This document shows, one piece after another, positions 1-32,903 of a stretch of DNA of 32,903 bases. A program made the position numbers and the translations under genes. The notes under the pieces were generated by a model. It searched no databases. It worked only from the letters and a program-made list of their open reading frames with translations, and was not told the origin of the DNA. Source of the stretch: a virus; IMG/VR virus record IMGVR_UViG_3300001346_000002; one strand, given 5' to 3'. Every line of letters begins with the position of its first letter. The stretch's first letter is position 1.

Positions 1-97
1 GTAAAAGAGAAACAAAAAGCAGAAGCAGCACAGCGTAGAATGGAGGAACTAAAAAGAAGATGAGCGAAGGACTAGTAACAAAGCATAGCACAATAAC
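1..97. repeat. 97-bp terminal direct repeat. An identical copy lies at 32807..32903, so this is either a circular-assembly overlap or true terminal redundancy.
   Basis: Read directly: gtaaaagagaaacaaaaagcagaagcagcacagcgtagaatggaggaactaaaaagaagatgagcgaaggactagtaacaaagcatagcacaataac occurs at both ends of the window. Confidence 0.95.
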
Positions 98-623
98 CCA
101 AGTACTAGAGGACTTTGGGAATGAGATGCAGACAGACTTAAAAGCTGAGCTGGTTAAGGATGGTGCTTATGTTTCTGGAGACTTAGCCGAACAAATAGAG
201 TTTACCTCTGTAATCAATGGCGAAGGCTTTGTATTCTCGCTTAGGTTAAAAGACTATTACGATTATGTGAATAAGGGAGTAAACGGAACTAAGACAGTTA
301 AGAATAACACACCCTACTCTTATATGTCTAGCTCTAAAATACCTTTTTACTTTGCTAAGCAATGGATGAATAACAAAGGATTGTTTAAAACTAAAGGAAG
401 CACTATAACAAGTTTAGCAGGCAAGCAGTACAAGGTAGGCTCTAAAGATTCTCAAGCGTTTGCAATGGCTAGAAGTTGGAAAGAGAAAGGAACTAAGGGT
501 AACCACTTTTATGACAATGTAGTAACAGAGGCAAGGCTCGACAAACTTAAAAAGGACTTAGCAAGTGCAGCAGCAGGAGACTTAAAAACAGTAATAACGG
601 ACACATTCAAAAGACTTAAATAA
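60..623 (+). CDS. Hypothetical virion-module protein, 187 aa
   Basis: Long ORF. Its ATG overlaps the upstream TGA (agaagATGAgc) and its stop abuts the next ATG at 624. It lies in the structural block after the terminase. I recognise no motif. Confidence 0.55.
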   Translation: MSEGLVTKHSTITQVLEDFGNEMQTDLKAELVKDGAYVSGDLAEQIEFTSVINGEGFVFSLRLKDYYDYVNKGVNGTKTVKNNTPYSYMSSSKIPFYFAKQWMNNKGLFKTKGSTITSLAGKQYKVGSKDSQAFAMARSWKEKGTKGNHFYDNVVTEARLDKLKKDLASAAAGDLKTVITDTFKRLK

Positions 624-1826
624 ATGGCAATAACTATAAATGCAACTCCTAAAGACTTTGCTCCTGTTTACAATAAAATGGAGTATCTTATAGAATCCAC
701 TAATGTAGCACAACCAAACTTTGCTTATTTAGTAGATATCTATATTAATTTTGCAGTAACAAAGACAGTACGTTTAAGAATACCTGCAAGACCTTCTGAC
801 AATAAGGGAAAGGTAGATATCCATAGAGTTCTAGAATCTGCTCTTACATCAGACATAGGTAACCCACTAGGAACTGACTCAGTATATGATGCTACTAATA
901 GTTTTCTAACTTATGTTATTAAATTCGGAGAGGAATACGGTACAACAATAGTACAATATCCAGACCTTACTATAGATACTATTAGAAAGACCTTTAACGG
1001 TAGCTTAGAAAAAAGACCTTTTGTTAATTGGGATGACACAGAATACGAGCTAGACGGAGCTACCAAAAAGTTTATGACTAATATGCCTAATGATAATAAA
1101 GTATCTTTAGACTCTCATGGATGGCTTTACTACAGAGGTTTTCCTTTTATTACTGATTTTGTTATTGTAAGGTTTTTAACAGGTGGAGCTGTGCAGAGCG
1201 TACAGATAGATGCTGCTGCTTCTGCTGCAAATATAAGATTTGTGCCATCTGCTCCTGCCACTTTAAACAATATAGATAATTCTAATTTTACAGCAGGCGC
1301 ACAGCCTATAATTACATCCGACACAGAGCGATATTACATGATAGCTTTAGATAGTGGTGGCAATGTTGTTTCTGAACAAAAACACTTTACACTACAGGAG
1401 GCTTGCAAGTACAATACTAATACCTTAATATTTCAGAACAATCTAGGAGGGTTCGATAACTTTACATTCTATTTAGGCGATATGTCTATGACAGATATTG
1501 AGAGAAAGGACATGAAGGTAAACGTAGACAATGTAGTAGGAAACGATATAGTGTACTCAATGAATGAGCGCGAAAAGGTAACATACTACACTAAAAAAAG
1601 CGAGACTATAAAATTAATGTCAGATTGGATAACAGAAGCAGAAAGCAACTGGCTACTAGAATTAATTTCAAGTCCTGAGATATACCTACAGAATGGAGAT
1701 GAACTTACAGCAGTAGCTAAGATTAAAGCAACCAACTACACTAAGAAAAAAGTAGTAAGGGATAAGCTATTCAAAATAGATGTAGAGCTTGAGCTAGGTT
1801 ATGACGATTACAGACAACGTATATAA
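624..1826 (+). CDS. Virion structural protein (tail or baseplate type, unassigned), 400 aa
   Basis: The 400-aa ORF directly abuts both neighbours. Its composition is beta-rich and Asn/Thr/Ser-rich, typical of tail proteins, and it sits upstream of a very large tail-type gene. Confidence 0.5.
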   Translation: MAITINATPKDFAPVYNKMEYLIESTNVAQPNFAYLVDIYINFAVTKTVRLRIPARPSDNKGKVDIHRVLESALTSDIGNPLGTDSVYDATNSFLTYVIKFGEEYGTTIVQYPDLTIDTIRKTFNGSLEKRPFVNWDDTEYELDGATKKFMTNMPNDNKVSLDSHGWLYYRGFPFITDFVIVRFLTGGAVQSVQIDAAASAANIRFVPSAPATLNNIDNSNFTAGAQPIITSDTERYYMIALDSGGNVVSEQKHFTLQEACKYNTNTLIFQNNLGGFDNFTFYLGDMSMTDIERKDMKVNVDNVVGNDIVYSMNEREKVTYYTKKSETIKLMSDWITEAESNWLLELISSPEIYLQNGDELTAVAKIKATNYTKKKVVRDKLFKIDVELELGYDDYRQRI

Positions 1827-3458
1827 ATGGTTACAGAGAAACTTATAATAGAGGGAGTTACTATACCGATAGACAAGGGTATTTCTACTGTGCTAACTTT
1901 TAGCATCAAAGATATTCAACAACCCGATAAGGTAAAGTCTAGTTTTAGTAAGACAATTAAGCTACCGGGAAGTAAGGCAATAAATGATAAGCTAAATTTT
2001 ATCTTTGAGGTAAATAGCGATTCTACATTTAATCCTAACTTGAAACTAGATGCGGTTTACTATCAAAATGACATAGCAGTATTTAGTGGTTTTATACAGT
2101 TAAAAGACATTCACAAAAAAGACTATAACCAAGTTGAATATAGCGTAGTGCTATTTGGAGAAACTGCTAATATCTTTAGAGAGCTAGGTAACAAGTTTCT
2201 GAATGACTCAGGTATGTTATGGAATGAGTTAGACCATGACTATACAAGAGTAATACAAGAAAATAGTTGGCAGACCTCATACATAGAAAATGGAGTAGTT
2301 ACACCGTTTCAACTTGGAAGCGGATATGTTTATCCAATGATTAATTACGGAAATGATACAGACATAAGCGTATACAATGTAGATGAGATGTTTCCTGCTG
2401 TTTATGCTAAGGAATACATAGATAGAATGTTTGCGGATTCAGGCTATACCTATACATCGACATTTTTAAACAGTCTACTATTTAAGCGTTTAATCATCCC
2501 TTTTAATGGCAAAGAATTTAAAAGTACTCAAACAGATTTAAGTCCTAGAAGGGTAGAGGCAAATACACCTTTATTTGTATCTAGTGGAAGTAATAACTTT
2601 ACTTTAGATTCATCTATTTACTCAAGCAATAGCTTCGTAGAAAATACAGTAAGACTTTCTAATGAGGTTGTAGACGCAAATAACCAATACAACTCAACTA
2701 CAGGGGAGCTAACAATAGGAGCAACTGGTTTGTATAGAATTTCATTTGATGCAATTATACAAATGGAAACAACTCCACAAGCAGGCGCAGCAGCAGCAGG
2801 GGATTTAATAGCAAATGGAAACGCTAATTTTTTGAATAATTTTGGAGTTTATGTGAATGGGGTATTTCAAAACGCTGTAACCTCTTACACTTTTGCAAAT
2901 AATTTAACTCCTGCTGTAACTTATCAAACAGCTAACCCTACATTATACCCAGATAACAACTTTTTAAATCCTCCAGGAAATGGACTTGTTTCCAGAAACT
3001 ACAACCCGCCAAACCAATATCAAGTAAATACAGACATACAATTAAATTCTGGAGATGTAGTAACTATTAAAATAGCTAGTGCTTGGAATCTTAGGGTGTT
3101 CAATTCTTCTGTAAATGGATATCCATTTCTACCTCTTTCTCAATTTAAACCTTACTATGATGTTAATAGTACACCTTCGCCACCTGTACAAATTAAAGAC
3201 GAGTACGATGCAGATTTTAAAATAATATTGTCTAGCGCGAATCTTTCTTTAAACATATTAGACTCTCCTTATTTAGAGGGCGACACAGTAGACATGGCTA
3301 GCGCTATCCCTGACAAGGTAAAACAAAGAGATTTTCTAACGTCTATTATAAAGATGTTTAACCTCTATATGATACCCGACGAGAATAACCCTAAGAATAT
3401 TATAATAGAACCTAGAGAGGATTTTTATACTACAGATGTAATAGACTGGAGTCAATAA
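1827..3458 (+). CDS. Large tail/host-recognition protein, N-terminal segment (543 aa). The gene continues in the +1 frame from 3445.
   Basis: The ORF ends ..IDWSQ-TAA at 3456..3458. The adjacent frame is open from 3445 and reads straight into the 3601..4800 ORF. The Asn/Ser/Thr/Gly-rich composition is tail-fibre-like. Confidence 0.55.
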   Translation: MVTEKLIIEGVTIPIDKGISTVLTFSIKDIQQPDKVKSSFSKTIKLPGSKAINDKLNFIFEVNSDSTFNPNLKLDAVYYQNDIAVFSGFIQLKDIHKKDYNQVEYSVVLFGETANIFRELGNKFLNDSGMLWNELDHDYTRVIQENSWQTSYIENGVVTPFQLGSGYVYPMINYGNDTDISVYNVDEMFPAVYAKEYIDRMFADSGYTYTSTFLNSLLFKRLIIPFNGKEFKSTQTDLSPRRVEANTPLFVSSGSNNFTLDSSIYSSNSFVENTVRLSNEVVDANNQYNSTTGELTIGATGLYRISFDAIIQMETTPQAGAAAAGDLIANGNANFLNNFGVYVNGVFQNAVTSYTFANNLTPAVTYQTANPTLYPDNNFLNPPGNGLVSRNYNPPNQYQVNTDIQLNSGDVVTIKIASAWNLRVFNSSVNGYPFLPLSQFKPYYDVNSTPSPPVQIKDEYDADFKIILSSANLSLNILDSPYLEGDTVDMASAIPDKVKQRDFLTSIIKMFNLYMIPDENNPKNIIIEPREDFYTTDVIDWSQ

Positions 3459-3600
3459 GCTAGACTATTCTAAAGAGCATAATCTTACACCAACTGCTGT
3501 AACTAATAAGCAAAAATACATATACACTTACAAGCAAGATGCTGACTATTACAATAAGAAATATGAATCTAGTTGGCTAGATATATACGGAAGTAGAAAC

Positions 3601-4800
3601 GTGTATCTCGAAAATGACTTTAATAAAACAGACCACAAAACAGAGCTTATCTTTTCGCCTACTCCAATGGTAGGGCAGCTAACAAATGATAGAGTAGTAA
3701 GCACAATAATAGATGTGGATGAGACGCTACAGCAAAAGACTATTAAGTCAAATATTAGAATACTTTACTATTCAGGTTTAAAAGATAGTATAATTAACTG
3801 GACTCATGAAGCTATATCTGGAGATGTTATACAGACTCGCTATCCTTATGCTGCACATTTCGATGACCCATATACTCCGACTATAGATATTAATTTCGGA
3901 CTACCAAGAGAAATATACTGGGATAATACTTGGTCGAGTATTACGATAACTAATGCAAACCTTTATGAAACATATCACAGAAAAGAATTTGAGCAGCTTA
4001 CAAATAAAGACAGTAAGATATTTAAAGGTTACTTTTTGTTAAACCCTACAGATATTGCTAACCTATCATTTAGACCTAGTTACTTTTTTGATAATGAATA
4101 CTGGACACTACATAAGGTTATGTACAGTAGCTCGATTTATCAACCTAGTAAATGCGAGTTCTTAAAATTAAAGTCAGTTCCTATACCAACATCAACATCG
4201 GCATTGGTATCGGCAGGTAGAGCTTTTATAGGCGACGAGGAAGCACCAAACATTTATAAAAATACTCTATCAGGAAACAATGTATTAAATACTAAGTCTA
4301 ACCATGTAGATGGCTTAAACAACTTTATAGACAGAACTGCAATGTTTGTAGATATAAAAGGAGATTCAAATAAGGTATCTACTAATGCTAAAAACATAAC
4401 TATATCAGGAGACAATAATATTATCTATCCAGATTTAGAGAATGTAAGCCTAATTAATACAAGTGGAGTAACTATAACAGAGTCTAATGTAGCTTATGTA
4501 AATGGCGAGATTAAAGGAGCAGGAAGCGTATTAACAATAGATACTAGTACTACAGCGGACGAAAGTATTACTACTTATTTATGCGATACCTCAAGCAACA
4601 AAATTACTGTTACCCTGCCTGAGTTTCCAACAGTAGGAAAGGTTTGGAACTTTAAAAAGATAGCTGTAAATTTTGTAATGATAATAAGAACTCCTCTTGG
4701 TTCTGCAACCACTATAGACGGTTTAGCAGATATACGAGTTACTGGCTACAATAATTCATACTCTGTTCAATTTGACGGAATAAACTATAAAATAATATAA
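3601..4800 (+). CDS. C-terminal segment of the same tail protein. The GTG at 3601 is probably not the real start.
   Basis: The frame is open with protein-like sequence from 3445 (TGVNKLDYSKEHNLTPTAVTNKQKYIYTYKQDADYYNKKYESSWLDIYGSRN-VYLEND..). There is no in-frame ATG between 3445 and 3601. Confidence 0.55.
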   Translation: MYLENDFNKTDHKTELIFSPTPMVGQLTNDRVVSTIIDVDETLQQKTIKSNIRILYYSGLKDSIINWTHEAISGDVIQTRYPYAAHFDDPYTPTIDINFGLPREIYWDNTWSSITITNANLYETYHRKEFEQLTNKDSKIFKGYFLLNPTDIANLSFRPSYFFDNEYWTLHKVMYSSSIYQPSKCEFLKLKSVPIPTSTSALVSAGRAFIGDEEAPNIYKNTLSGNNVLNTKSNHVDGLNNFIDRTAMFVDIKGDSNKVSTNAKNITISGDNNIIYPDLENVSLINTSGVTITESNVAYVNGEIKGAGSVLTIDTSTTADESITTYLCDTSSNKITVTLPEFPTVGKVWNFKKIAVNFVMIIRTPLGSATTIDGLADIRVTGYNNSYSVQFDGINYKII

Positions 4801-4801
4801 C

Positions 4802-4951
4802 ATGACATACATTCCAGACATATACAGCGGAGTTATATCAGTACCTATAAATACTACATTAATGATTACATTTAATAGTCAAATGATTAACTACGGAGGT
4901 TTAAACATACAAGGGGTTTTAGTTATACAAGGAGATTTAATATTAAAATAA
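4802..4951 (+). CDS. Small hypothetical protein, 49 aa (MTYIPDIYSGVISVPINTT..QGDLILK)
   Basis: Hand-translated ORF that fills the 158-nt gap between two structural genes. It is below the ORF-track cutoff. Confidence 0.3.
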   Translation: MTYIPDIYSGVISVPINTTLMITFNSQMINYGGLNIQGVLVIQGDLILK

Positions 4952-4958
4952 AAATACA

Positions 4959-5612
4959 ATGGCAAATATACAAATAGGCGCAGCAGCAGGAACTACTTTA
5001 GGCAACCCACCAAGCGGAGACTTTTACATCTTTATAGATAGTGATAATGTGAACGCCTACACTTTAAGAGATAGCTCTGGAATGGACACTATACTAGGAA
5101 GCGCAAACCCTGCAACCTTATACGGTCTTTATTCGCAAACTGTACAAAGCGCAACTATTACAAATACAGTAACAGAAACAAGTATTGTGGGAACTGGAGT
5201 AGGTAGCTTGACTGTACCTGCTGACTTTTTTACCGTAGGCGATTCTTATCATGGAAAAATAGGAGGAGTTATTTCTGCTCAAAATGGAGACGATGTAACT
5301 TTAAGAATTAAAACAGGAACAACAGTATTAGCAAGTACAGGAGCAATATCTTTAAGTCCAGTAACTGGTTTAGGATGGGAGCTAGAGCTAGACTTTACAA
5401 TAGCAGCAATAGGAGCAACTGGAACTATTTGCACCAATGGAAACTTTGCATATAATAGAGACACAGGAAGTTTAGAGGGTTTTGTATTTCAGGACGTACA
5501 AGCAATAGACACTACTGCGAGTAATACACTAGACATAACCGTAGAATGGGGGCAAGCTAAAGCTCAAGACCAAATATACAGCGCAAACTTTGTACTATAT
5601 AAAACTTACTAA
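4959..5612 (+). CDS. Tail-fibre / receptor-binding-like structural protein, 217 aa
   Basis: Gly/Thr/Ala/Ser-rich, beta-type sequence with no charged helices. It lies between the large tail gene and the tape-measure-like gene. Confidence 0.4.
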   Translation: MANIQIGAAAGTTLGNPPSGDFYIFIDSDNVNAYTLRDSSGMDTILGSANPATLYGLYSQTVQSATITNTVTETSIVGTGVGSLTVPADFFTVGDSYHGKIGGVISAQNGDDVTLRIKTGTTVLASTGAISLSPVTGLGWELELDFTIAAIGATGTICTNGNFAYNRDTGSLEGFVFQDVQAIDTTASNTLDITVEWGQAKAQDQIYSANFVLYKTY

Positions 5613-5614
5613 GA

Positions 5615-7552
5615 ATGGCAGACGATAAGGTAGCATTAGAAATATTTATAGAAGCAGACAAAGCTCAAATGTCTTTAGGGGATTTAGAGGCAGGCTTTGA
5701 CTCTATGAAGGAAAGACTTAAAGAAGTCGGCAGAGGCAGCGAGGAGTTCAAAACCCTTTCTACGGCAATGGCTAACACCTCCAAAGAAATTAAGAATATA
5801 GAGCTAGGCTTTGAAGGTTTGGACAGAGAGCAGGTAGCTAGTGAACTCGGAAGTGTTGCAGGAGCTGTAGGAGATGTAACAGCTAGTCTAGTCTTAATGG
5901 GTGGAGAATCTGAAACAATGGAGCAGATAGGCGCAAGTATTGAAAAAGCTATGGCTATTTCTATGGGGTTCAAAGGAGCTATAGAAGGGTTAAGCTCTGC
6001 AAATAAACTTTATAATAACTTACTAAAACAAGGTAAAGTCGCGCTTATTGCTAAGACAGTAGTAGAGAAAGCAGCAGCAGCAGGAACATGGTTACTTAAT
6101 GCAGCTAACAAGGCATTGAACATTACTTTAAAAGCTAACCCTATCGGATTAATAGTTACTGCTCTAGGTTTAGTAGTAGCTGGGGTAGTATATTTTAAGG
6201 ATTCTATAATGAGCTTAATAGATACAGCTTTAAAACCATTTCAATGGATTATAGACATTCTCATTGATGGCTTACAAGCTATGGGTATTATGGCAAGTGA
6301 TGAAGCTATAGCTCAAGAGAAAGCAGCAGAAAAGAAAATAGAAAGCTATCGGAAGCAAGCAAAAGAACTAGAAAAACTAAGAGAGGCACATGAGAGATTA
6401 TCTGAAAAGGTATTAGGCGATTTGGAATATGAACTAGAATTACTAAAAGCTAAAGGAGAAGATACAGCAGAAGCAGAATGGGATATAGTAAACCAAAAAA
6501 AGAAAGCAGCAAAAGAAGCTAAAAAAATAGCACAGGACGAATATAACAACTCTAAGAAATTAATAGACCTAAGAAGGGCGCAAAATAAAGAGGTAACAGA
6601 CGAGGACATTCAAGCTCTTAATGCTTTAGTTGATAACGTACACGCTACTAGAGACGCTTACACAGATGCCACAAGAGACCAGACTATATTTTTTGCTAAC
6701 CGTAAAAGACAAAGAAAAGAGGACAGAGAAGCAGAAGCAGAAGCGGATAAAAAAGCAGCAGCAGAGGCAGAAGCAGCAAGACAAAAGGCATGGGAAGCAG
6801 GAGCAGCAGATAGAGCTATGGCTAGGTCTAAAGAACAGCAAGCTAAGAAGGATGCTTTAATGGAGGACATCGAAAGGGTAGAGATAGATAAGACCATGCA
6901 GACTGAGGAGCTAGATAGGCACTCAATACATATAGAGGGGTTAATATCTAACGAGCAAGCTCTAAGAGATGCAATGATTCAGTTTTCAGATGCGCAGTTA
7001 ATAAAGATAGAGGAGGAAAGACAGGCAAGACTAGCAGCTAACCAAGAAAGACTAGAAAGCGCATCTCAAGTAATCGGAGCAATAGGTAGCTTAAATAGTG
7101 CAGCATTAGCAAATGACCTAAAGAATGCAGGCAATAATGAAGCACTAAAAGAGAAGTTAAGAAAGGCTAGTTTTGAACGTGAAAAGAAACTAAACATAGC
7201 AATGGCTTTGGTAAATGGCGCACAGGCTCAAATGTCTATACTAGCGCAAACACCCAAAGCAGATTTTGGAATCGCCACAGCTATAGCAATGGCAGCAGCA
7301 GCAGTTACAACTATAGCACAGATAGCAGCAATTAAAGCCACATCTTATCAAGGTGGCGGTAGTCCTGCAAGCCCTGAAACAAGTACAGCACCAAGTGCAG
7401 GAGGAGCAGGAGCAGCAGGTGGAGGAGCAGCCATAAGTCCAGTAAGTAACACTAGCACTATACTAGGTAATCAACAAGTATATGTAACTGAAACAGACAT
7501 AACAGAAACACAAAATAATGTAAGCGTAATAGAAGAAAGCGCAACTTTTTAA
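5615..7552 (+). CDS. Tape-measure-like or internal virion protein, 645 aa
   Basis: Long Ala/Glu/Lys-rich coiled-coil segments. There is a hydrophobic membrane-like stretch (PIGLIVTALGLVVAGVVYF), a second hydrophobic Ala-rich segment near the C-terminus and a Gly/Ala-rich tail. Confidence 0.5.
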   Translation: MADDKVALEIFIEADKAQMSLGDLEAGFDSMKERLKEVGRGSEEFKTLSTAMANTSKEIKNIELGFEGLDREQVASELGSVAGAVGDVTASLVLMGGESETMEQIGASIEKAMAISMGFKGAIEGLSSANKLYNNLLKQGKVALIAKTVVEKAAAAGTWLLNAANKALNITLKANPIGLIVTALGLVVAGVVYFKDSIMSLIDTALKPFQWIIDILIDGLQAMGIMASDEAIAQEKAAEKKIESYRKQAKELEKLREAHERLSEKVLGDLEYELELLKAKGEDTAEAEWDIVNQKKKAAKEAKKIAQDEYNNSKKLIDLRRAQNKEVTDEDIQALNALVDNVHATRDAYTDATRDQTIFFANRKRQRKEDREAEAEADKKAAAEAEAARQKAWEAGAADRAMARSKEQQAKKDALMEDIERVEIDKTMQTEELDRHSIHIEGLISNEQALRDAMIQFSDAQLIKIEEERQARLAANQERLESASQVIGAIGSLNSAALANDLKNAGNNEALKEKLRKASFEREKKLNIAMALVNGAQAQMSILAQTPKADFGIATAIAMAAAAVTTIAQIAAIKATSYQGGGSPASPETSTAPSAGGAGAAGGGAAISPVSNTSTILGNQQVYVTETDITETQNNVSVIEESATF

Positions 7553-7562
7553 AATAATAGAT

Positions 7563-8792: not shown

Positions 8793-8811
8793 ACATTAAA
8801 AAAAAATTATT

Positions 8812-9753
8812 ATGGGTTTTGAATTAGGAACATTATCAGCATACATAGAAGACCAAGACTTTCCATTGATTGCACAGATGCAAGCAACAGGAGGATTAGC
8901 AGCAGTAGCAGATATTCAAACAGGAATTAAAGGGAGTTCACATTTACAGTTTTTATCAACTGATGTTATTTTTGGAGCAGATGGCTGCACAAGAACAGGA
9001 AACGCAGATACGGACATCACACAAAAAACTTTAACTGTCGGAGCAATCGCTGTGTCAGAAGATTTATGCGTAAAAGACCTTAACGGATACTGGGCGCAAG
9101 TTCTAGTGAAGAAAGGAGCAGCAGGAGAGGAAGAAATGCCAGCAGAAATCGAAGCGGTTTACATGGAAAAGAAGATGAATGCAATGCAGAATCAACTTAC
9201 TATCTCTGACTTTCAAGGAGACACAGCAAGTGCAACAAATAACTTGTCTTACTATGACGGTCTTTTGAAAATTGTAGATGCAGGTGCGCCAGTAGATGGT
9301 AACACAGGAGCTGTAACAGTAGCAACTGGAATCTCAAGCTCTAACGTACTAGACATCTTAGATGGTATGTGGGAAAGCATCCCTGATAATATCTCTGAAG
9401 CAGACGACCTTTCATTATGGGTGCCGACATCAGTTTACAAAAAATATGTAGTAGCACTTAAAAACGCTAACTTATTCCACTATTCTGGAGATGGCGAGCA
9501 AGTAAACCTTTACGGAACTAACGTAGCTTTAAGAAGCACAGTAGGACTACCGGGAGCAGCAGGAGACGAGAGAATGATTTTAACAAGAGACTCTAACGTA
9601 GTTATCGGAATGGACGGAGACGCTGACGAGGACGCAATGAAAGTGCGTTTAGACCCAGTTACTGAAAAGAACATTTTCTTCGATGTTACCTTCAAACGTG
9701 GCGTACAAGTACGATTTGTAGACGAATGTGTACAGTTCACATTAATTCCTTAA
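8812..9753 (+). CDS. Major capsid protein, 313 aa
   Basis: It directly follows the protease/scaffold gene, has a long A-rich leader and is followed by a strong intrinsic terminator. Size and composition fit an HK97-fold coat protein. Confidence 0.75.
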   Translation: MGFELGTLSAYIEDQDFPLIAQMQATGGLAAVADIQTGIKGSSHLQFLSTDVIFGADGCTRTGNADTDITQKTLTVGAIAVSEDLCVKDLNGYWAQVLVKKGAAGEEEMPAEIEAVYMEKKMNAMQNQLTISDFQGDTASATNNLSYYDGLLKIVDAGAPVDGNTGAVTVATGISSSNVLDILDGMWESIPDNISEADDLSLWVPTSVYKKYVVALKNANLFHYSGDGEQVNLYGTNVALRSTVGLPGAAGDERMILTRDSNVVIGMDGDADEDAMKVRLDPVTEKNIFFDVTFKRGVQVRFVDECVQFTLIP

Positions 9754-9778
9754 TAGGACTTTAACAATTAACTAAGAG

Positions 9779-9810
9779 AGGGGTGGGTAAAATACCTTAC
9801 CCCTTTTTTT
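9779..9810 (+). terminator. Rho-independent terminator after the capsid gene
   Basis: GAGGGGTGGGTAAAATACCTTACCCC followed by T7. GGGTAA pairs with TTACCC, or alternatively AGGGGT with ACCCCT. Confidence 0.8.
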
Positions 9811-9836
9811 ATAAACATTAAAAAAAATATAAAATT

Positions 9837-10352: not shown

Positions 10353-10374
10353 TTTTAAACAACTAATTAAGGAG

Positions 10375-21339: not shown

Positions 21340-21700
21340 AGCCTATTTAAGAACAGTAGACGAGGAGGTCTACAGAAAACATAAACAAATGTATTTGAAT
21401 CACGATAAACACATAGACAATATTTGCAGGATAATATTTGCATATTTTGATGTGCCACTAGAAAAGATAAAAGTAAAGAACAGACAAGCTCAGATCATAA
21501 GAGCTAAACAATTTACTGCTTATTTTCTTAGGCGAGAAGTTCGTAGAATAACCTTGACCGAGATAGGCCAAGTATTCGACCTAGACCATGCAACAGCTTT
21601 GCATTCTATTAGCAAAATAAAAGGACTAATAGAAATAGACAAAGAATATAGAGAGTATCACAATGAACTATGTACTAAACTAATGGACTTATATAGATAA
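21302..21700 (+). CDS. DnaA domain-IV-like DNA-binding protein. The start is uncertain; an alternative ATG lies at 21389.
   Basis: IIRAKQFTAYFLRREVRRITLTEIGQVFDLDHATALHSISKI closely follows the DnaA C-terminal HTH pattern (RQIAMYL..SL.EIG..FG.RDHTTV.HA..KI). Confidence 0.6.
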   Translation: MYQAHYLTDKGIKAYLRTVDEEVYRKHKQMYLNHDKHIDNICRIIFAYFDVPLEKIKVKNRQAQIIRAKQFTAYFLRREVRRITLTEIGQVFDLDHATALHSISKIKGLIEIDKEYREYHNELCTKLMDLYR

Positions 21701-22895: not shown

Positions 22896-23953
22896 TATTA
22901 GAAAACAACTCAGGCAAAAAGTATTTAGATTCTATTAGGGATGGTAGCTTTAAACTAGGATTAGAAATTGGATGCCCTCTGGATTCACATCTGCGCTACA
23001 AGCAAGGTACATTTAATGTTATGGCTGGACACGCCAACGTAGGAAAGACTAAATTTATACTTTATTATTATCTTTGTTTAGCTGTAAAGCACTCTAAAAA
23101 GTTTTTAATCTTTAGTGCTGAGAATAGCACAGGAGGAATTAAAAGAGATTTAATACAACTCCATGCAGGTAAACAACTAAAAGAACTTGACGAGCAGCAG
23201 TATGAATATCATTTTAACTGGGTAGGCGAACACTTTAAATTTATAGACTTTGAACAGTTCTACAGAATTAACAAAAGGTTTATGAACTTTAGAGATGTGT
23301 TTAAAGCAGCTTTAGATGACTGCGAGTACTTTGATGCTTTGGTTATAGACCCTTACAATAGTTTAGCAACCTGCGAAGATATAAAAGGCAATAGCCACGA
23401 AAGAGATTATGCAGTAGCTAGTGAGTTTAGAATGTTCTGCAAACAAAATAATAAAAGTATTTACTTACTTGCTCATGGAAATACAGAAGCTCTACGTAAA
23501 ACTTTTACAAAAGGACATGATTTTTACGGACACCCTATTCCGTTAATGGCATCCGATATTGAGGGAGGCGGTAAGTGGGTAAACAGAGCAGATGACTTTA
23601 TCGTAATACATAGACTAACTCAGCACGAAAGTGAATGGATGAAAACAGAGGTACACATCCGCAAAATTAAAGAAGTAGAAACTGGAGGCACACCAACCTT
23701 TATGGAATCGCCAGTTATTTTTCACATGGACAAAGGAGGATTAAGTTTTAATTGTTACATTCGTCAAAAAGATTATAGTATATTGCCACCTAATGCAAAA
23801 AACCCATTAAGCGATATGCCAGTAGTAGAACCTAAACAAACGGAATTAAAACCAAATAAAGCATTTGATATAAACCATACCATAGAACCAAAGCCAACTA
23901 AAGACGAGGACTGGCTAAGTGGTTACATGGAAGAGGAAGAATTTAAGATATGA
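22892..23953 (+). CDS. DnaB-like (RecA-fold) replicative helicase
   Basis: Walker A is MAGHANVGKTKF and Walker B is ALVIDPYNSL. It follows the initiator gene with a 4-nt overlap. Confidence 0.65.
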   Translation: MILENNSGKKYLDSIRDGSFKLGLEIGCPLDSHLRYKQGTFNVMAGHANVGKTKFILYYYLCLAVKHSKKFLIFSAENSTGGIKRDLIQLHAGKQLKELDEQQYEYHFNWVGEHFKFIDFEQFYRINKRFMNFRDVFKAALDDCEYFDALVIDPYNSLATCEDIKGNSHERDYAVASEFRMFCKQNNKSIYLLAHGNTEALRKTFTKGHDFYGHPIPLMASDIEGGGKWVNRADDFIVIHRLTQHESEWMKTEVHIRKIKEVETGGTPTFMESPVIFHMDKGGLSFNCYIRQKDYSILPPNAKNPLSDMPVVEPKQTELKPNKAFDINHTIEPKPTKDEDWLSGYMEEEEFKI

Positions 23954-24591
23954 AAGTAACAGATAAAATAACAATAACGAATGAGGATAATATGCAGTTA
24001 ATGGCACGCTATCCAGACAACTATTTTGATTTAGCTATTGTAGACCCTCCTTATGGTATTGATGTTACTAAAATGACACTTGGGAATGGAAAGAAAAAAA
24101 TTAATAGGGGTTTATCAAATTGGGATAGTAGTATACCTACTTTAAAATATTGGAATGAATTGTTTAGAGTTTCTAAAAATCAAATAGTATGGGGAGCAAA
24201 TTATATGACAACATTTTTACCTCCAAGTATGGGTTGGGTGTTTTGGGATAAAGGAACAGGTGCAAATGATTTTTCAGATGGCGAACTTGCATATACAAGT
24301 TTTAATAGGGCATTACGAAAATATAAAGTTTCTTGGGTTGGTGCTAATGCTAATAATGGCACTCCAAGAATACACCCAACAGAAAAACCGATACAACTTT
24401 ACGAATGGTTATTAATGAACTACGCAAAAAAAAACGATAAAATACTTGATACACATTTAGGAAGTGGAAGTATAGCTATTGCTTGCCATAACAGAGGCTT
24501 TGAGTTAACAGCGTGCGAATTAGATAAAGAGTATTACGAAGCAAGTATTAAGAGATTTAAACAACAGACAGCACAACAAACAATGTTTTAA
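23950..24591 (+). CDS. Orphan beta-class DNA methyltransferase (N6-adenine or N4-cytosine family; the DPPY motif favours m6A)
   Basis: Motif IV (IVDPPYGI) is near the N-terminus and the AdoMet motif (ILDTHLGSGS) is near the C-terminus, which is the beta-class order. No restriction endonuclease partner is nearby. Confidence 0.75.
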   Translation: MKVTDKITITNEDNMQLMARYPDNYFDLAIVDPPYGIDVTKMTLGNGKKKINRGLSNWDSSIPTLKYWNELFRVSKNQIVWGANYMTTFLPPSMGWVFWDKGTGANDFSDGELAYTSFNRALRKYKVSWVGANANNGTPRIHPTEKPIQLYEWLLMNYAKKNDKILDTHLGSGSIAIACHNRGFELTACELDKEYYEASIKRFKQQTAQQTMF

Positions 24592-26090: not shown

Positions 26091-26351
26091 ATGAATATTT
26101 TAAAAGAAGCAGATAAAATAATAAACGAAAGAGCAGAAGAAAAAGAAAGAGCTTATGGACCATTTGAAGATTCAATGACAAAAGCCGCCTCTATTGCATC
26201 GGAATTATGTAATAAGCACATAACTACAGAAGACTTCTATAAGTGCATGATAGCTCTTAAGATGAGCCGTATGGCATATAATTTGAAAGAAGATACATTG
26301 CTAGATTGTGTAGCTTATGTTGGTGCGCTAAATAACTACAAAAATGATTAA
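26091..26351 (+). CDS. Small conserved phage protein (DUF6378-like by recollection), co-translated with the ThyA-fold gene
   Basis: The pattern ERAYGPFEDS..IAS..ITTEDFYKCMIALKMSRMAYN..EDTLLDCVAYVGAL resembles a widespread ~90-aa phage family that often sits beside nucleotide-metabolism genes. It overlaps the next gene by 8 nt. Confidence 0.4.
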   Translation: MNILKEADKIINERAEEKERAYGPFEDSMTKAASIASELCNKHITTEDFYKCMIALKMSRMAYNLKEDTLLDCVAYVGALNNYKND

Positions 26352-27105
26352 CAACAGATTTGAACGAGACTACAAGCATCTTTTAATGGAGTGCTTAATA
26401 AATGGAGAACTGACAAATAATAGGACAGGCGTAAAAACATACAAGCTTTTTAACAAGACATTTAATATAGACCTACAGAAAGGTTTTCCAATTGTAACAG
26501 CAAAAAAAATAAACTTTAGCTTTGGGTTACACGAGTTTTTATGGATATTCAATGGCAGAACAGACTTAGCTTATTTAAACGAGCATGGTATAAAATGGTG
26601 GAATGGGTTTGCCAAAAATGGAAAGCTAGGTAAAGTATACGGCTATCAGTTAAGAAAGTTTGGGGGCAGTTTTGACCAAGTAGACTATGTTATTAATGAA
26701 ATAAAAAACAACTCCAGAAGAGCTGTTATAAGTTTATGGAACCCAAACGATTTAAAAGAGCAAGCCTTGCCATGTTGTTATACTCATTTTAACTTTGTTA
26801 GAGCTGGGAATAACTTAAATATGTCAATGGACTTTAGAAGCTCAGATATGTTTTTAGGGTTGCCTTATGATATAATTGTAGGAGCTTTACTATTAACTAC
26901 TATAGCAAAAGAGTGTGAACTTACGCCGAGCAAGCTGGGTATAAATTTAAAAGATGCACATATTTATGAAAATCATAAAGAGCAAGTAATAGAATACAAT
27001 AGAACAGAAACACATGTACTACCCTCTTTGACAGGAGGCATTGAAAAATACGAGTTAGATAATTATACTCACGGCAAATATATTAAAGCAAAACTAAATA
27101 AATAA
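26344..27105 (+). CDS. Thymidylate-synthase-fold pyrimidine C5-(hydroxy)methylase with Asp at the ThyA Asn177 position; predicted to be dCMP-specific
   Basis: It aligns without gaps to E. coli ThyA blocks: NRTG (R21), HEFLW (E58), SRRAVISLWNP (R126/R127), ALPCCY (Cys146) and FRSSDMFLGLPYD against QRSCDVFLGLPFN. Residue 177 is therefore Asp, not Asn. Confidence 0.7.
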   Translation: MINNRFERDYKHLLMECLINGELTNNRTGVKTYKLFNKTFNIDLQKGFPIVTAKKINFSFGLHEFLWIFNGRTDLAYLNEHGIKWWNGFAKNGKLGKVYGYQLRKFGGSFDQVDYVINEIKNNSRRAVISLWNPNDLKEQALPCCYTHFNFVRAGNNLNMSMDFRSSDMFLGLPYDIIVGALLLTTIAKECELTPSKLGINLKDAHIYENHKEQVIEYNRTETHVLPSLTGGIEKYELDNYTHGKYIKAKLNK

Positions 27106-27445: not shown

Positions 27446-27862
27446 ATGAGGAAATATATAGCAAAAATAAATATAACAGAAGCGCTTTTAAAAGAGAGCA
27501 CAGGGTATATAGGAGAGAAAGTATTTGAACAATGGTTTATGAACAACTTTCAAGGAGAACAACTATTTAAACAAAACGCTGATAGAGATTACCAGCAGAT
27601 TGATTTTGTAGATGACAAGGGCTATAAGTATCAAGTGAAAGCTACAAGAGAAAAGACTTATACGTTTAATTGTATATTAGAAGATATTGAGGAGCATTTA
27701 GCAAGTGACGTATATGTATTGATACAAATAAAAAATAAAGTTGCCTATATTGAAACCTTTTACAATAAAGAGTATATAAAACAAAATATAAATCAAAGCT
27801 TTAAATATAATAATAGTTTTATATGGGCGAAAGATCTACAGCAAAATGTATTAGATATATGA
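27446..27862 (+). CDS. PD-(D/E)XK nuclease-like protein, 138 aa
   Basis: GEKVFEQWF (E) .. QIDFVDDKGYKYQVKAT (D..QxK) is compatible with a restriction-endonuclease-like core. This is a weak, motif-only assignment. Confidence 0.35.
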   Translation: MRKYIAKINITEALLKESTGYIGEKVFEQWFMNNFQGEQLFKQNADRDYQQIDFVDDKGYKYQVKATREKTYTFNCILEDIEEHLASDVYVLIQIKNKVAYIETFYNKEYIKQNINQSFKYNNSFIWAKDLQQNVLDI

Positions 27863-30393: not shown

Positions 30394-30849
30394 ATGAATA
30401 AAGAGCTAACGCCTAAGGAGCAGAAATTTGCAGAGCTATGTGTAACACTAGGTAATCAAACAGAAGCGTACAGACAGGCTTATAACGTCTCTAATAAAGA
30501 TGCTGAATGGATAAAAGTAAAGGCATCACAGATAGCAAGTAAGGATAACGTAAGGTTAACTATCAACAAACTAAAGGGAGAGCTATCTGAAACACATGGA
30601 ATAGATAGAGCTTTTATCTTACAAGGTTACTTGCAAATCATTTCAGATGCAGACTACACATTCCAGTTAGGAGCAGACAATACGCTAACTAAGGAAGATA
30701 AGCAAGCCTTTTATAGGATCATGAATCAAACTAAGAACACCGACAAAATAAGAGCCTTAGAAGCAATATCTAAAATGATGGGATTGAATGAGCCAGAAGT
30801 AATAGAGCATAAGCATACAGTCAAAACTTATAAAACAAACTGGGGATAA
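30394..30849 (+). CDS. terS: Terminase small subunit (Terminase_2-like)
   Basis: LTPKEQKFAELCVTLGNQTEAYRQAYNVS..AEWIKVKASQIASKDNVRLTI matches the HTH-type small terminase pattern. It lies directly upstream of terL. Confidence 0.75.
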   Translation: MNKELTPKEQKFAELCVTLGNQTEAYRQAYNVSNKDAEWIKVKASQIASKDNVRLTINKLKGELSETHGIDRAFILQGYLQIISDADYTFQLGADNTLTKEDKQAFYRIMNQTKNTDKIRALEAISKMMGLNEPEVIEHKHTVKTYKTNWG

Positions 30850-32058
30850 TTGGAGGAGGTAGACTTATATAGACCACATCCTAAACAAAGGGAGATACAT
30901 AAGGCACTAGACACAGATATAAAGTATTGTATAGTTTCTATTGGTAGGCAGTTTGGGAAGTCTACACTAGGGGAGAATCAATCTATTAAATGGGCATTAG
31001 AAAATAGCCATTGGAAAATAGGATGGGTTAGTCCAATATACAAACAAGCTAAGAAAGTTTTTAAGGACATAGAGAAAGCTGTAATAGGCTGCCCATTTAT
31101 TACCAACGTAAACAAAGGAGACTTAATACTAGAATTTGCTACAGATAGCTCTATACAGTTCTACTCAGCAGATGCCTATGATAGTATTAGAGGGGAGACA
31201 TTTGACGCTTTAATATGTGATGAGTTCGCATTCTTTAAACCCGAAGCATGGAACGAAGTACTTAAAGCTACTGTATTAGTGCGAGGCAAAAAGGTACTTA
31301 TCTTATCCACTCCGAAAGGGAAAAACCAATTTTATAATTTGTTTAACCTAGCAGAACACAATAGCAACTATATTTCATTTAGAGGTAGCTCATACGATAA
31401 CCCATTTATAGACCCTGCTGAAATAAAGGAAGCAGAAAGGAACTTACCAGACCACGTATTTAAGCAGGAGTACCTAGCAGAGTTTTTAGATAATGGGAGT
31501 AGTGTATTCAGAAATATACAAGAGTGCATTAAAACGTCTGTAAACACGTCTAGCCTTTATGCAGGAATAGATTTAGGTAGGTCTGACGATTATACAGTTT
31601 TAACTATTGTAGATTCAAACAATATAGAAGTCTACTCTGAAAGGTGGAGGCACATGGAATGGAGTGCAATAATTAATAACATAGTAACCCAGTTAAATAA
31701 GTACAGACCTAATACCTTAGTAGAAAGTAACGGAGCGCAAGACGCTATCTTCGAACAGATAAGAAACAAGGTAAGCTACAATAAGAACTCAATACAACCA
31801 TTCGTTACCACATCCAAAAGCAAGCAGAATATAATAGAGGACTTAATCGTAAAGTTTGAATCTATGGAGATCGGAATAATTGGACACGATTGGCAGATTA
31901 ATGAGCTAGAAGTATTTACTTACGAATACAATGTAAAGACTAGAGCAATAAAATACAATGCTCCTGTAGGCTTACATGACGATTATGTAATGAGTAGAGC
32001 AATAACTAACCACGCTTTAAAAACTATGAAAAGCTCAGGAAAGTATTTTGTATATTAA
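30850..32058 (+). CDS. terL: Terminase large subunit. TTG start immediately after the terS stop.
   Basis: Walker A is GRQFGKST and Walker B is ALICDEF. The nuclease-domain acidic residues are GIDLGRSDDYTV and GLHDDYVMS. There is no in-frame ATG upstream of Walker A, so the TTG at 30850 is required. Confidence 0.85.
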   Translation: MEEVDLYRPHPKQREIHKALDTDIKYCIVSIGRQFGKSTLGENQSIKWALENSHWKIGWVSPIYKQAKKVFKDIEKAVIGCPFITNVNKGDLILEFATDSSIQFYSADAYDSIRGETFDALICDEFAFFKPEAWNEVLKATVLVRGKKVLILSTPKGKNQFYNLFNLAEHNSNYISFRGSSYDNPFIDPAEIKEAERNLPDHVFKQEYLAEFLDNGSSVFRNIQECIKTSVNTSSLYAGIDLGRSDDYTVLTIVDSNNIEVYSERWRHMEWSAIINNIVTQLNKYRPNTLVESNGAQDAIFEQIRNKVSYNKNSIQPFVTTSKSKQNIIEDLIVKFESMEIGIIGHDWQINELEVFTYEYNVKTRAIKYNAPVGLHDDYVMSRAITNHALKTMKSSGKYFVY

Positions 32059-32093: not shown

Positions 32094-32774
32094 ATGAGAA
32101 TACCTAAAAGCCTTAAAGAAGTTTTAGTTAAGGACTACATACAGATAAACAAAATTCGTAGCGCAGAATACGATAACCCTTTTACTAGGACTATAGACCT
32201 ATTGTGTATTTTCAATGACAGAAAGGATGTTTTAAAGTGCAAACCATCTGAGTTAGCTATTGACCTTAACCACTTATTAGTAGAGCCTAGTAGAACTCTA
32301 AAACAGTATTTCACTATTAACGGTAAACGGTACGGAATAGTTAACCATATTAACGATTTGGAAGCAGGGCAATACATGAGCTTCACAACTTATTTAAAAG
32401 GGTTTGCAGATAACCCTAACGTACATATTGAGCAGATGCCTGACATTCTAGCTAGTGTTATCTTTCCAGTAGACAAGAATAATAAGGTAATGGCAATAGA
32501 ACCTAGTTACTTTCGTAACCTAGCAGATGACATACGTAACACAATGTCGATAGAAGATGCTTTCCCGATTTGTGTTTTTTTTTGTCTGCTGTCAGCGAAC
32601 TTACGTCAAACTACTCAGGACTTTTTGAACACGAAACTAGAGAGCATGACGGAGGAGAGCAGGGAAGCGATTTTGGAGGTAGCGAAGGATTTGGAGAAAG
32701 ATGGGGTTGGATTGCCACCCTCGATAACCTCTGCAATGGAGACTTTACAAAAAGACCATATTACGAAAAAATGA
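32094..32774 (+). CDS. Hypothetical virion-assembly protein, 226 aa. This is the 0-frame product of a candidate frameshifting gene (tail-assembly-chaperone-like logic).
   Basis: It is the first ORF of virion block 1 and contains the T9 run at 32575..32583 (codons GTT TTT TTT TGT). The -1 frame is open from 32540 to 32869. Confidence 0.6.
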   Translation: MRIPKSLKEVLVKDYIQINKIRSAEYDNPFTRTIDLLCIFNDRKDVLKCKPSELAIDLNHLLVEPSRTLKQYFTINGKRYGIVNHINDLEAGQYMSFTTYLKGFADNPNVHIEQMPDILASVIFPVDKNNKVMAIEPSYFRNLADDIRNTMSIEDAFPICVFFCLLSANLRQTTQDFLNTKLESMTEESREAILEVAKDLEKDGVGLPPSITSAMETLQKDHITKK

Positions 32775-32869
32775 ACGTGATAGAGTTTTTAAATATTTGC
32801 AGCTTTGTAAAAGAGAAACAAAAAGCAGAAGCAGCACAGCGTAGAATGGAGGAACTAAAAAGAAGATGA
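32540..32869 (+). other. -1 frame open window overlapping 32094..32774. It is either the C-terminal extension of a frameshift fusion or, minimally, a 32-aa micro-ORF from the ATG at 32771.
   Basis: The frame is open for 110 codons. It ends in a TGA that overlaps the ATG of the next gene (position 60 = 32866). The ATG at 32771 overlaps the 0-frame TGA. Confidence 0.45.
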
Positions 32870-32903
32870 GCGAAGGACTAGTAACAAAGCATAGCACAAT
32901 AAC
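32807..32903. repeat. Second copy of the 97-bp terminal repeat. It duplicates the end of the micro-ORF/frameshift product and the first 38 nt of the gene at 60.
   Basis: Identical to 1..97 by direct comparison. Confidence 0.95.

What the first reader, a model, noticed from the sequence alone, without database searches (positions are those of the whole stretch)
1..32903. Near-total avoidance of GATC across the whole genome
I read the whole window for the tetranucleotide GATC and found only four copies: 21493..21496, 27833..27836, 30717..30720 and 31869..31872. There are none in the first ~21 kb, which is the entire virion and lysis region.

For an AT-rich sequence of this length, a 2-GC/2-AT tetramer should occur on the order of a hundred times. 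That is a rough estimate, not a computed value. Other palindromes of similar composition (AGCT, CTAG, GTAC) are visibly common.

Depletion this strong is the classic footprint of selection by a host GATC-specific restriction system of MboI/DpnII/Sau3AI type, or a DpnI type if the DNA is methylated. T7 shows the same pattern.

It also implies that the phage methyltransferase at 23950 does not protect GATC, which fits its beta-class (non-Dam) architecture. The four surviving sites lie in the DnaA-like gene, the nuclease-like gene, terS and terL.
Basis: seen in the sequence. Interest (0 to 1): 0.7.

Follow-up and report, generated by a model that had tools for sequence, protein, structure and literature searches.

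The report
Restriction-driven GATC avoidance in flavobacterial phage
This uncultured phage of marine Flavobacteriales has removed almost every GATC (and many other palindromes) from its genome by synonymous codon choice, which is a real and very strong but well-known way for phages to evade host restriction enzymes.

Summary
The window is a circular 32,806-bp phage genome with a 97-bp assembly overlap, and it has four GATC at exactly the stated positions. Expected counts are 99.5 from base composition, 47 from a maximal-order Markov model and 51 ± 6 from a synonymous-codon shuffle. GATC is the most under-represented of all 256 tetramers.

Sites are removed synonymously in all three codon phases (Asp before a C-initial codon: GAT 1, GAC 50). 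The four survivors are not conserved in relatives.

GATC is the extreme case of class-wide palindrome avoidance. GGCC, CCGG, CGCG, CCWGG and GGWCC are also depleted, and hexamer palindromes have a median observed/expected of 0.43.

The trait is shared by a large family of uncultured relatives (23 of 62 loci have zero GATC) but varies by lineage. Some relatives avoid AGCT, CTAG or CATG instead.

In Flavobacteriaceae genomes the chromosome keeps GATC (observed/expected 0.81), while prophages and islands inserted at comM lack it (0.05).

The best explanation is selection by GATC-directed host restriction, most likely MboI/DpnII-type and possibly methyl-dependent. The enzyme and the exact host are not identified. 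The inference that the β-class methyltransferase cannot target GATC is not sound.

This is a known kind of phenomenon in a new lineage.

The parts
1..32903 (.). Whole phage genome, depleted about 12-fold in GATC. It is a circular assembly with 32,806 unique bp, 34.6% GC and all genes on the + strand. It also shows general avoidance of palindromes.
21493..21496 (.). Surviving GATC no. 1 (CAG|ATC, codon phase 2), in the ORF with a DnaA C-terminal HTH domain (21302-21700). It could be removed synonymously. All 3 aligned relatives have GATA here.
27833..27836 (.). Surviving GATC no. 2 (GAT|CTA, phase 0), in the unannotated 138-aa ORF 27446-27862. It is the only Asp-GAT before a C-initial codon in the genome (1 against 50 GAC).
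30717..30720 (.). Surviving GATC no. 3 (AGG|ATC, phase 2), in terS (30394-30849). Only 1 of 31 aligned relatives keeps it.
31869..31872 (.). Surviving GATC no. 4 (GAG|ATC, phase 2), in terL (30850-32058). None of 45 aligned relatives keeps it.
23950..24591 (+). Beta-class amino-methyltransferase (213 aa) with an N-terminal DPPY motif and a C-terminal AdoMet-binding region (PF01555). Its target sequence is unknown. It is a second anti-restriction device, separate from site avoidance.
   Evidence: It is 78% identical to the Cellulophaga phage Nekkels_1 methyltransferase, and 58-62% identical to those of Flavobacterium and Nonlabens phages.
26344..27105 (+). Thymidylate synthase (ThyA). It is relevant because it argues against base hypermodification as the main anti-restriction strategy.
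   Evidence: PF00303 at 222 bits. TIGR03284 at 182 bits, above its cut-off of 108.
32807..32903 (+). Exact 97-bp repeat of window bases 1-97. This is an assembly overlap marking a circular or circularly permuted genome.

Best explanation
The genome has been purged of GATC by natural selection, because host cells in the Flavobacteriales carry endonucleases that cut incoming DNA at GATC. The most probable culprits are classical methyl-sensitive Type IIP restriction-modification systems of the MboI/DpnII kind.

Each new GATC that arises by mutation lowers the chance that an infecting genome escapes cleavage. Lineages in which the site is removed, nearly always by a synonymous change, therefore win.

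The same process acts on other recognition sequences that circulate in this host group: GGCC, CCGG, CGCG, CCWGG, GGWCC and many hexamer palindromes. The phage complements avoidance with a methyltransferase of unknown specificity.

Shown here:
- the depletion, its codon-level mechanism and its specificity to the exact word;
- its breadth across the family and its variation between lineages;
- the contrast between mobile DNA and chromosome.

Inferred:
- that the selective agent is a restriction endonuclease;
- which type of enzyme it is.
For: (1) GATC is 4 against 46.7 (Markov) or 51.3 +/- 5.9 (codon shuffle), the lowest z-score of 256 tetramers.

(2) Removal is synonymous and occurs in all three phases. 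Asp before a C-initial codon is GAT 1 and GAC 50, against 50-66% GAT elsewhere. Ser after nGA is TCN 0 and AGY 24, against 287:282 elsewhere. Ile-ATC after a G-ending codon is 3 of 98.

(3) All single-substitution neighbours are close to or above expectation.

(4) Palindromes are avoided as a class. Hexamer palindromes have a median observed/expected of 0.43 against 1.01 for non-palindromes (p = 1e-15), and 20 of the 22 most depleted hexamers are palindromes.

(5) It is a family trait. Of 62 related viral loci of at least 8 kb, 32 have GATC observed/expected of 0.1 or less and 23 have none.

(6) It varies by lineage. Some relatives at about 80% nucleotide identity have relaxed to 9-15 sites, in homologous DNA. 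More distant relatives have normal GATC but lack AGCT (4/43, 1/28), CATG (0/39) or CTAG (0/24).

(7) The four surviving sites are young: 0/3, 0/1, 1/31 and 0/45 relatives share them.

(8) It is not a host signature. Across 110 kb of Flavobacteriaceae chromosome GATC is 269/331 (0.81). Across 68 kb of prophages and islands inserted at comM in the same genomes it is 9/190 (0.05), and the step falls at the junction.

(9) Cultured flavobacterial phages range from 80/87 to 2/67.

(10) Literature. Flavobacterium psychrophilum carries HpaII- (CCGG), FnuDII- (CGCG) and ScrFI-like (CCNGG) systems and a highly prevalent GATC methyltransferase (PMC11837570). An MboI-like GATC system is documented in the Bacteroidota member Prevotella intermedia (PMC5608340). 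Site avoidance is a general phage strategy (PMC6286503).
Against: No GATC-cutting enzyme was identified in any candidate host.

The host is known only as Flavobacteriales, from capsid and methyltransferase homology.

In the one flavobacterium with detailed data, the GATC methyltransferase is an orphan with no cognate endonuclease.

The chromosomal controls come from Flavobacteriaceae that are not shown to be hosts of this phage.

One of the six comM inserts is not depleted (8/14.8).
Confidence: 0.6

Rival explanations
1. The driver is methylation-dependent restriction (DpnI-like Type IIM, or Type IV enzymes). Many flavobacteria methylate GATC, so DNA replicated in them acquires the mark and is then cut in the next host by enzymes that recognise methylated GATC. 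Where methylating strains and methyl-dependent strains coexist, no methylation state is safe, and losing the site is the only escape.
For: The GATC methyltransferase M.FpsJIV is among the most prevalent in 17 F. psychrophilum genomes, and it is an orphan with no endonuclease.

GATC is under-represented in all 46 phages whose hosts encode Type IIM GATC enzymes (PMC6286503).

Resident prophages and islands, which would be methylated by the host, are also GATC-free.

The family carries many different methyltransferases, yet none is cleanly associated with tolerating GATC.
Against: The co-depleted sites (GGCC, CCGG, CGCG, CCWGG and hexamer palindromes) are classical Type IIP targets. A single common mechanism is therefore more parsimonious.

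No DpnI-like or Type IV gene was examined in any host.
Confidence: 0.25
2. This is T7-like counterselection through methyl-directed mismatch repair. Under-methylated GATC in rapidly replicating phage DNA would be nicked or cut by MutH in Dam-positive hosts.
For: T7 shows a comparable depletion of GATC (6/141).
Against: From general knowledge, MutH/Dam-directed repair is confined to some Gammaproteobacteria and is not known in Bacteroidota.

In T7 only GATC is depleted (GGCC 68/88, CCGG 58/82). Here palindromes are depleted as a class.

Non-replicating integrated islands are also GATC-free.
Confidence: 0.03
3. There is no selection on the site. The depletion is a by-product of base composition, codon usage, mutation bias, or mimicry of the host's oligonucleotide signature.
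For: Dinucleotide and trinucleotide composition does account for about half of the naive expectation (99.5 falls to about 47).
Against: Markov and codon-preserving nulls still expect 47-51. Neighbouring words are not depleted. The codon choice is context-dependent. Flavobacterial chromosomes are not depleted (0.81). Close relatives differ.
Confidence: 0.02
4. The cause is intrinsic to the phage. Either the phage encodes or recruits a GATC-specific nuclease to degrade host DNA and must spare itself, or the few GATC sites serve as functional signals.
For: Host chromosomes are GATC-rich and would be good targets. ORF 27446-27862 has no assigned function.
Against: No nuclease family is detected for the candidate ORF.

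The four sites are not conserved.

Unrelated elements are equally GATC-free: type I R-M islands, other prophages, and siphoviruses such as lillamy9-1. That argues for a host-side cause.
Confidence: 0.05

Closest known systems
Restriction-site (palindrome) avoidance in bacteriophage genomes, as surveyed by Rusinov et al. 2018 (PMC6286503)
   Same: There is strong, composition-corrected under-representation of short palindromic recognition sequences in a dsDNA phage. It varies with host and lineage and is concentrated on Type II sites.
   Different: The host and its restriction-modification repertoire are unknown here, so the site-to-enzyme link that defines the published cases could not be made.
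GATC scarcity in coliphage T7
   Same: Near-absence of GATC: 6 against 141 expected in T7, and 4 against 47 here.
   Different: T7's depletion is confined to GATC, with other tetramer palindromes near expectation. It is classically attributed to Dam/MutH rather than to restriction-modification (general knowledge). The present phage avoids palindromes as a class, and its host phylum is not known to have MutH.
Flavobacterium phage vB_FspS_lillamy9-1, and to a lesser degree Cellulophaga phage Nekkels_1
   Same: These are cultured flavobacterial phages with a homologous methyltransferase (58-78% identity). GATC is 2/67 and 34/115, and CGCG and GGCC are also avoided.
   Different: They have unrelated virion modules. 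Lillamy9-1 additionally avoids CTAG (6/75). Nonlabens phage P12024L, the only cultured phage with a related capsid, has normal GATC (80/87).
DpnI/DpnII complementary systems of Streptococcus pneumoniae, and Sau3AI-driven absence of GATC in staphylococcal phage K (recalled from general knowledge, not tested here)
   Same: These are GATC-directed barriers in which both methylated and unmethylated DNA can be targeted in a host population. That favours loss of the site over methylation.
   Different: There is no evidence here that such paired systems exist in Flavobacteriales.

Membership tests
Restriction-site avoidance (anti-restriction by loss of recognition sites) | Significant under-representation of the site against composition-, Markov- and codon-corrected nulls | tested here: met
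   4 against 46.7 (z = -7.3) and against 51.3 +/- 5.9 (z = -8.0; 0 of 1000 shuffles)..
Restriction-site avoidance (anti-restriction by loss of recognition sites) | Depletion acts at the DNA level (synonymous, in all reading phases) and is specific to the exact word | tested here: met
   Codon-context counts. Neighbouring words are not depleted.
Restriction-site avoidance (anti-restriction by loss of recognition sites) | The site is a known recognition sequence of restriction-modification systems in the host group | tested here: inconclusive
   A GATC methyltransferase of the MboI prototype is prevalent in F. psychrophilum, but no endonuclease was found there. An MboI-like system exists in Prevotella, in the same phylum. 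Nothing is known for the actual host.
Restriction-site avoidance (anti-restriction by loss of recognition sites) | The host of this phage encodes a cognate GATC-directed endonuclease | not testable with these tools
   The host is resolved only to Flavobacteriales, and no host genome is available to scan.
Restriction-site avoidance (anti-restriction by loss of recognition sites) | Depletion is stronger in mobile DNA than in the host chromosome, and varies between lineages and hosts | tested here: met
   Chromosome 0.81 against comM inserts 0.05. Variation among relatives and cultured phages.
Dam/MutH-type counterselection (T7 model) | The host has Dam methylation of GATC and a MutH endonuclease | not tested
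   No host genome is available. From general knowledge, MutH is not known in Bacteroidota. The pattern differs from T7 because palindromes are depleted as a class.
Dam-family (alpha-class, PF02086) GATC methyltransferase, for ORF 23950-24591 | Alpha-class motif order and a match to the Dam family model | tested here: not met
   PF01555 N6_N4_Mtase, with DPPY N-terminal and the AdoMet-binding motif C-terminal, which is beta class. This excludes membership of the Dam family but does not exclude GATC specificity.
Base hypermodification as the anti-restriction strategy (hmC/hmU-type phages) | A thymidylate-synthase-like hydroxymethylase in place of ThyA, plus transferases; no need for site avoidance | tested here: not met
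   The ThyA homologue passes the thymidylate synthase model TIGR03284 (182 bits against a cut-off of 108). No glycosyltransferase or dioxygenase was found. Site avoidance is pervasive.

The most novel reading that the evidence does not exclude
GATC is purged from essentially all horizontally moving DNA in Flavobacteriales (lytic phages, prophages and comM-inserted defence islands) while chromosomes keep it. Yet the best-studied flavobacterium has only an orphan, highly prevalent GATC cytosine methyltransferase and no GATC endonuclease. This could point to a widespread GATC-directed barrier in this order that has not yet been identified. One possibility is a nuclease that reads the methylation state of GATC imposed by M.FpsJIV-like enzymes. 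The partly relaxed sister lineages of this phage family would then be natural experiments for finding it.
Probability: 0.2. Interest if true: 0.6.

Novelty: new member of a known kind. Interest (0 to 1): 0.35.

Why it matters
The finding gives a sequence-only read-out of which restriction specificities an abundant, uncultured family of marine flavobacterial phages has faced. These are GATC, GGCC, CCGG, CGCG, CCWGG, GGWCC and many hexamer palindromes.

It also shows that in Flavobacteriaceae the GATC barrier separates mobile DNA from chromosomal DNA very sharply (observed/expected 0.05 against 0.81).

That has three practical uses:
- host prediction;
- finding prophage and island boundaries, since GATC-free tracts mark inserts;
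- designing vectors for flavobacteria, which are notoriously hard to transform (GATC-free and GGCC/CCGG/CGCG-free constructs).

It does not reveal a new biological principle.

Tried and rejected
- **Megablast of both halves of the window against deposited phages.** No match.
- **ThyA as bait for host chromosomes.** All 120 best hits were phage-lineage metagenomic proteins of 249-260 aa, so no host information was gained.
- **Endolysin tblastn for host clues.** It is a generic M15 peptidase from phages of many Gram-negative hosts and was uninformative.
- **Methyltransferase specificity.** Pfam, PHROGs, NCBIfam, PDB and plasmid homologues gave only generic beta-class or 'DNA methyltransferase' labels. 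Specificity remains unknown.
- **Does a particular methyltransferase explain the relaxed GATC lineages?** The 340-aa SPPF (probably N4-cytosine) enzyme occurs in relaxed contigs (11/24, 4/19.5). Copies 98-100% identical to it also occur in GATC-free contigs (0/11.4, 0/6.8). No C5 or Dam-type enzymes were found. The idea is rejected as a clean explanation and kept as a lead.
- **Are the surviving sites functional?** Rejected, because they are not conserved.
- **Is the empty first 21 kb a module-specific rule?** Not supported. Residual sites in relatives occur in all modules.
- **A promiscuous adenine methyltransferase protecting all A-containing sites.** Considered because the strongly depleted tetramers are GATC plus three of the four G/C-only palindromes (GGCC, CGCG and CCGG; GCGC is not depleted). 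Rejected because A-containing hexamer palindromes such as AAGCTT, TCTAGA, GAGCTC and CTGCAG are strongly avoided.
- **The 'nuclease-like' annotation of ORF 27446-27862.** No support in any library.
Full report
**What the window is**

The last 97 bases repeat the first 97, so the sequence is a circularly closed assembly of 32,806 unique bases. It has 34.6% GC and all recognisable genes are on the + strand.

The gene content is that of a tailed phage:
- virion: XkdF-like protease and scaffold region, major capsid protein at 8812-9753, portal at 11209-13128;
- lysis: M15 endolysin at 16674-17108;
- recombination: Erf and an exonuclease;
- replication: SSB, a protein with only the DnaA C-terminal domain, a DnaD-like loader and a DnaB-like helicase;
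- a beta-class DNA methyltransferase at 23950-24591, NinG, ThyA, MazG, terS and terL.

It has no close relative among deposited phages at the DNA level.

**The observation**

GATC occurs exactly four times, at 21493, 27833, 30717 and 31869. The expected counts are:
- 99.5 from base composition;
- 51.8 from a first-order Markov model;
- 46.7 from the maximal-order Markov model. Against that model GATC has the lowest z-score (-7.3) of all 256 tetramers.

Holding every protein sequence and each gene's codon usage fixed while shuffling synonymous codons gives 51.3 +/- 5.9 sites inside genes. Four are observed, z is -8.0, and none of 1000 shuffles is as low. The Poisson tail probability is about 1e-15. 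All twelve single-substitution neighbours of GATC are close to or above expectation, for example CATC 61/32, TATC 103/76 and GATA 251/224.

The finding is therefore real and specific, about 12-fold below a fair expectation.

**How the avoidance is achieved**

GATC can sit in a reading frame in three ways, and all three are suppressed by synonymous choice.
- Asp followed by a C-initial codon is GAT once and GAC 50 times (2% GAT, against 50-66% before A, G or T).
- Ser after a codon ending in GA is never TCN (0) and always AGY (24), whereas elsewhere the split is 287:282.
- Ile-ATC after a G-ending codon is 3 of 98.

This is direct evidence of selection on the DNA word rather than on proteins or on overall codon usage.

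**The four survivors**

Each could be removed by a synonymous change. At the orthologous positions, relatives carry single-base alternatives. The site is shared by 0 of 3, 0 of 1, 1 of 31 and 0 of 45 aligned relatives. They look like recent mutations that have not yet been purged, not like signals.

There are no sites in 1-21492 (33 expected) and four in the remaining third (13.6 expected). This is nominally unusual (post hoc p about 0.007). In relatives, however, residual sites are scattered over all modules, so I give it no weight.

**GATC is the extreme of a broader pattern**

Other depleted palindromes include:
- GGCC 1/16, CGCG 3/14 and CCGG 3/10;
- CCWGG 2/24, GGWCC 2/20 and CACTG/CAGTG 1/22.5;
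- many hexamer palindromes, for example AAGCTT 2/17.7, TCTAGA 1/11, GAGCTC 0/10, CTGCAG 2/9.5 and AACGTT 0/4.7.

As a class, hexamer palindromes have a median observed/expected of 0.43, against 1.01 for non-palindromes (Mann-Whitney p about 1e-15). Twenty of the 22 most depleted hexamers are palindromes.

**Relatives**

The terminase and capsid proteins retrieve a large family of uncultured viral contigs. Of 62 loci of at least 8 kb, 32 have GATC observed/expected of 0.1 or less and 23 have none at all. Several 20-kb loci have 0 against 28-38 expected.

Within the clade that is about 80% identical to the window, some lineages have relaxed to 9-15 sites within DNA homologous to the window. More distant relatives have normal GATC (70/65, 29/38) and instead avoid other tetramers: AGCT 4/43 and 1/28, CATG 0/39 and 1/31, CTAG 0/24.

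Avoidance spectra that shift between related lineages are what changing restriction repertoires predict. Mutation bias does not predict them.

**Host**

Several lines point to the same order:
- The only cultured phages with a detectable capsid relative infect Nonlabens/Persicivirga, at 24% identity.
- In genome assemblies, capsid relatives lie in a Vicingus MAG (65%), a Flavobacteriales MAG (46%) and prophage-like regions of several Flavobacterium species (31-33%).
- The methyltransferase is 78% identical to that of Cellulophaga phage Nekkels_1, and 58-62% identical to those of Flavobacterium and Nonlabens phages.

The host is therefore a member of the Flavobacteriales. The genus is unknown.

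**Not a host signature**

In Flavobacterium muglaense, a prophage-like element is inserted in comM/yifB. The 1.4-kb host flank has 8 GATC and the 19.5-kb insert has none against 56 expected.

I used ComM to fetch other Flavobacteriaceae chromosomes. Pooled, the chromosomal DNA (110 kb) has 269 GATC against 331 expected (0.81). The elements inserted at comM (68 kb; prophages and islands carrying type I R-M and recombinases) have 9 against 190 expected (0.05). The step falls exactly at the junction, and five of six inserts have 0-1 sites.

So GATC loss is a property of mobile DNA in this bacterial group.

**Cultured flavobacterial phages**

The cultured phages that carry a homologue of the same methyltransferase span the whole range of GATC:

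| Phage | GATC observed/expected |
|---|---|
| Nonlabens P12024L | 80/87 |
| Flavobacterium 11b | 43/66 |
| Cellulophaga Nekkels_1 | 34/115 |
| Flavobacterium lillamy9-1 | 2/67 |

All four avoid GGCC and CGCG. GATC avoidance therefore depends on host or lineage and is independent of carrying this methyltransferase family.

**The methyltransferase**

It is a PF01555 beta-class enzyme with an N-terminal DPPY motif. Its nearest solved relatives have diverse specificities (chains named DpnA, CcrM, MboIIA and RsrI). No library or annotated homologue gives a target.

The family as a whole carries at least six different methyltransferase architectures: 213-223 aa, 246 aa, 259 aa, a 340-aa SPPF type, ParB fusions and SNF2-helicase fusions. 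This is a rapidly exchanged anti-restriction cassette. None of them cleanly tracks the relaxation of GATC.

**Mechanism**

The most economical explanation is selection by host endonucleases acting at GATC, together with other Type II specificities.

Flavobacterium psychrophilum is documented to carry HpaII- (CCGG), FnuDII- (CGCG) and ScrFI-like (CCNGG) systems that block DNA entry. It also carries a very prevalent GATC methyltransferase, though with no cognate endonuclease (PMC11837570). An MboI-like GATC system is documented in Prevotella intermedia, another Bacteroidota member (PMC5608340).

I favour classical methyl-sensitive MboI/DpnII-type enzymes (0.6), because the co-avoided sites are classical Type IIP targets.

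The main rival (0.25) is methyl-dependent restriction of GATC marked by host methyltransferases. It would explain three things:
- the orphan methylase;
- the reported universal GATC avoidance in phages of hosts with Type IIM enzymes (PMC6286503);
- why losing the site, rather than acquiring a methylase, is the solution adopted.

Other explanations fit poorly:
- Dam/MutH counterselection, as proposed for T7. In T7 GATC is 6/141 while other palindromes are normal.
- Compositional explanations, which argue against.
- Phage-intrinsic explanations, which argue against.

**Verdict**

The core interpretation is supported indirectly, although the enzyme and the host remain unidentified. The phenomenon is a textbook anti-restriction strategy seen in a new, abundant, uncultured lineage.

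The sharp contrast in GATC between mobile DNA and chromosome in Flavobacteriaceae is the most useful by-product.

Noticed in passing
L145 1-1417 against 1418-20903; L149, L152, L158 and L159, 1-10000 against 10001-end: comM/yifB is a recurrent insertion hotspot in Flavobacteriaceae. Many database ComM proteins are truncated at exactly 283 or 305 aa. The inserts are prophages or islands with type I R-M, serine recombinases and ImuB-like polymerases, and they are almost GATC-free, while the adjoining chromosome is not. GATC-free tracts could serve as a marker of island boundaries.
   Followed up: partly
window 11209-13128: The portal protein carries a C-terminal winged-helix or AsnC-type HTH domain at residues 491-534. 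It scores just above the Pfam cut-offs. The portal of the distant relative L125 shows a weaker HTH_24 match in the same region, just below the Pfam cut-off. This is an unusual fusion for a portal.
   Followed up: no
window 21302-21700: A 132-aa protein consists only of the DnaA C-terminal DNA-binding domain (Bac_DnaA_C, 53 bits). It could bind host DnaA boxes.
   Followed up: no
L088; L121, L122 and L124; L135, L138 and L142: Relatives show different 'forbidden' tetramers. L088, which is about 80% identical to the window, has CATG 0/39. L121, L122 and L124 have AGCT 4/43, 3/34 and 1/28. L135, L138 and L142 lack ACGT, CATG, CTAG and TCGA almost entirely.
   Followed up: partly
L004 2971-3993, L018 5696-6718, L033 6401-7423: A 340-aa methyltransferase with an SPPF motif, typical of N4-cytosine enzymes, is present in the two partly GATC-relaxed contigs. 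It is also present in GATC-free ones. It could be a GATC cytosine methylase like M.FpsJIV. This was not tested.
   Followed up: partly
L153 (Nonlabens phage P12024L) 16409-18674: In P12024L the homologue of the window's methyltransferase lies next to a 2OG-Fe dioxygenase (TET/JBP-like) and a gene annotated as a glucosyl-HMC glucosyltransferase. That phage has normal GATC (80/87) but still avoids GGCC and CCGG. It may use DNA hypermodification as an alternative protection.
   Followed up: no
window 1-32903: There is a strong purine and A-over-T excess on the coding strand (A 12,876 against T 8,652; G 6,413 against C 4,962), with every gene on one strand. AATT is moderately low (168 against 265 in the codon shuffle, ratio 0.63). 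This looks like a codon-pair or context effect rather than site avoidance.
   Followed up: no
L142 and L143: The two loci come from one Gammaproteobacteria contig in which the capsid match and the GATC positions are mirror-symmetric. This suggests a palindromic mis-assembly, or an inverted duplication of a phage genome.
   Followed up: no
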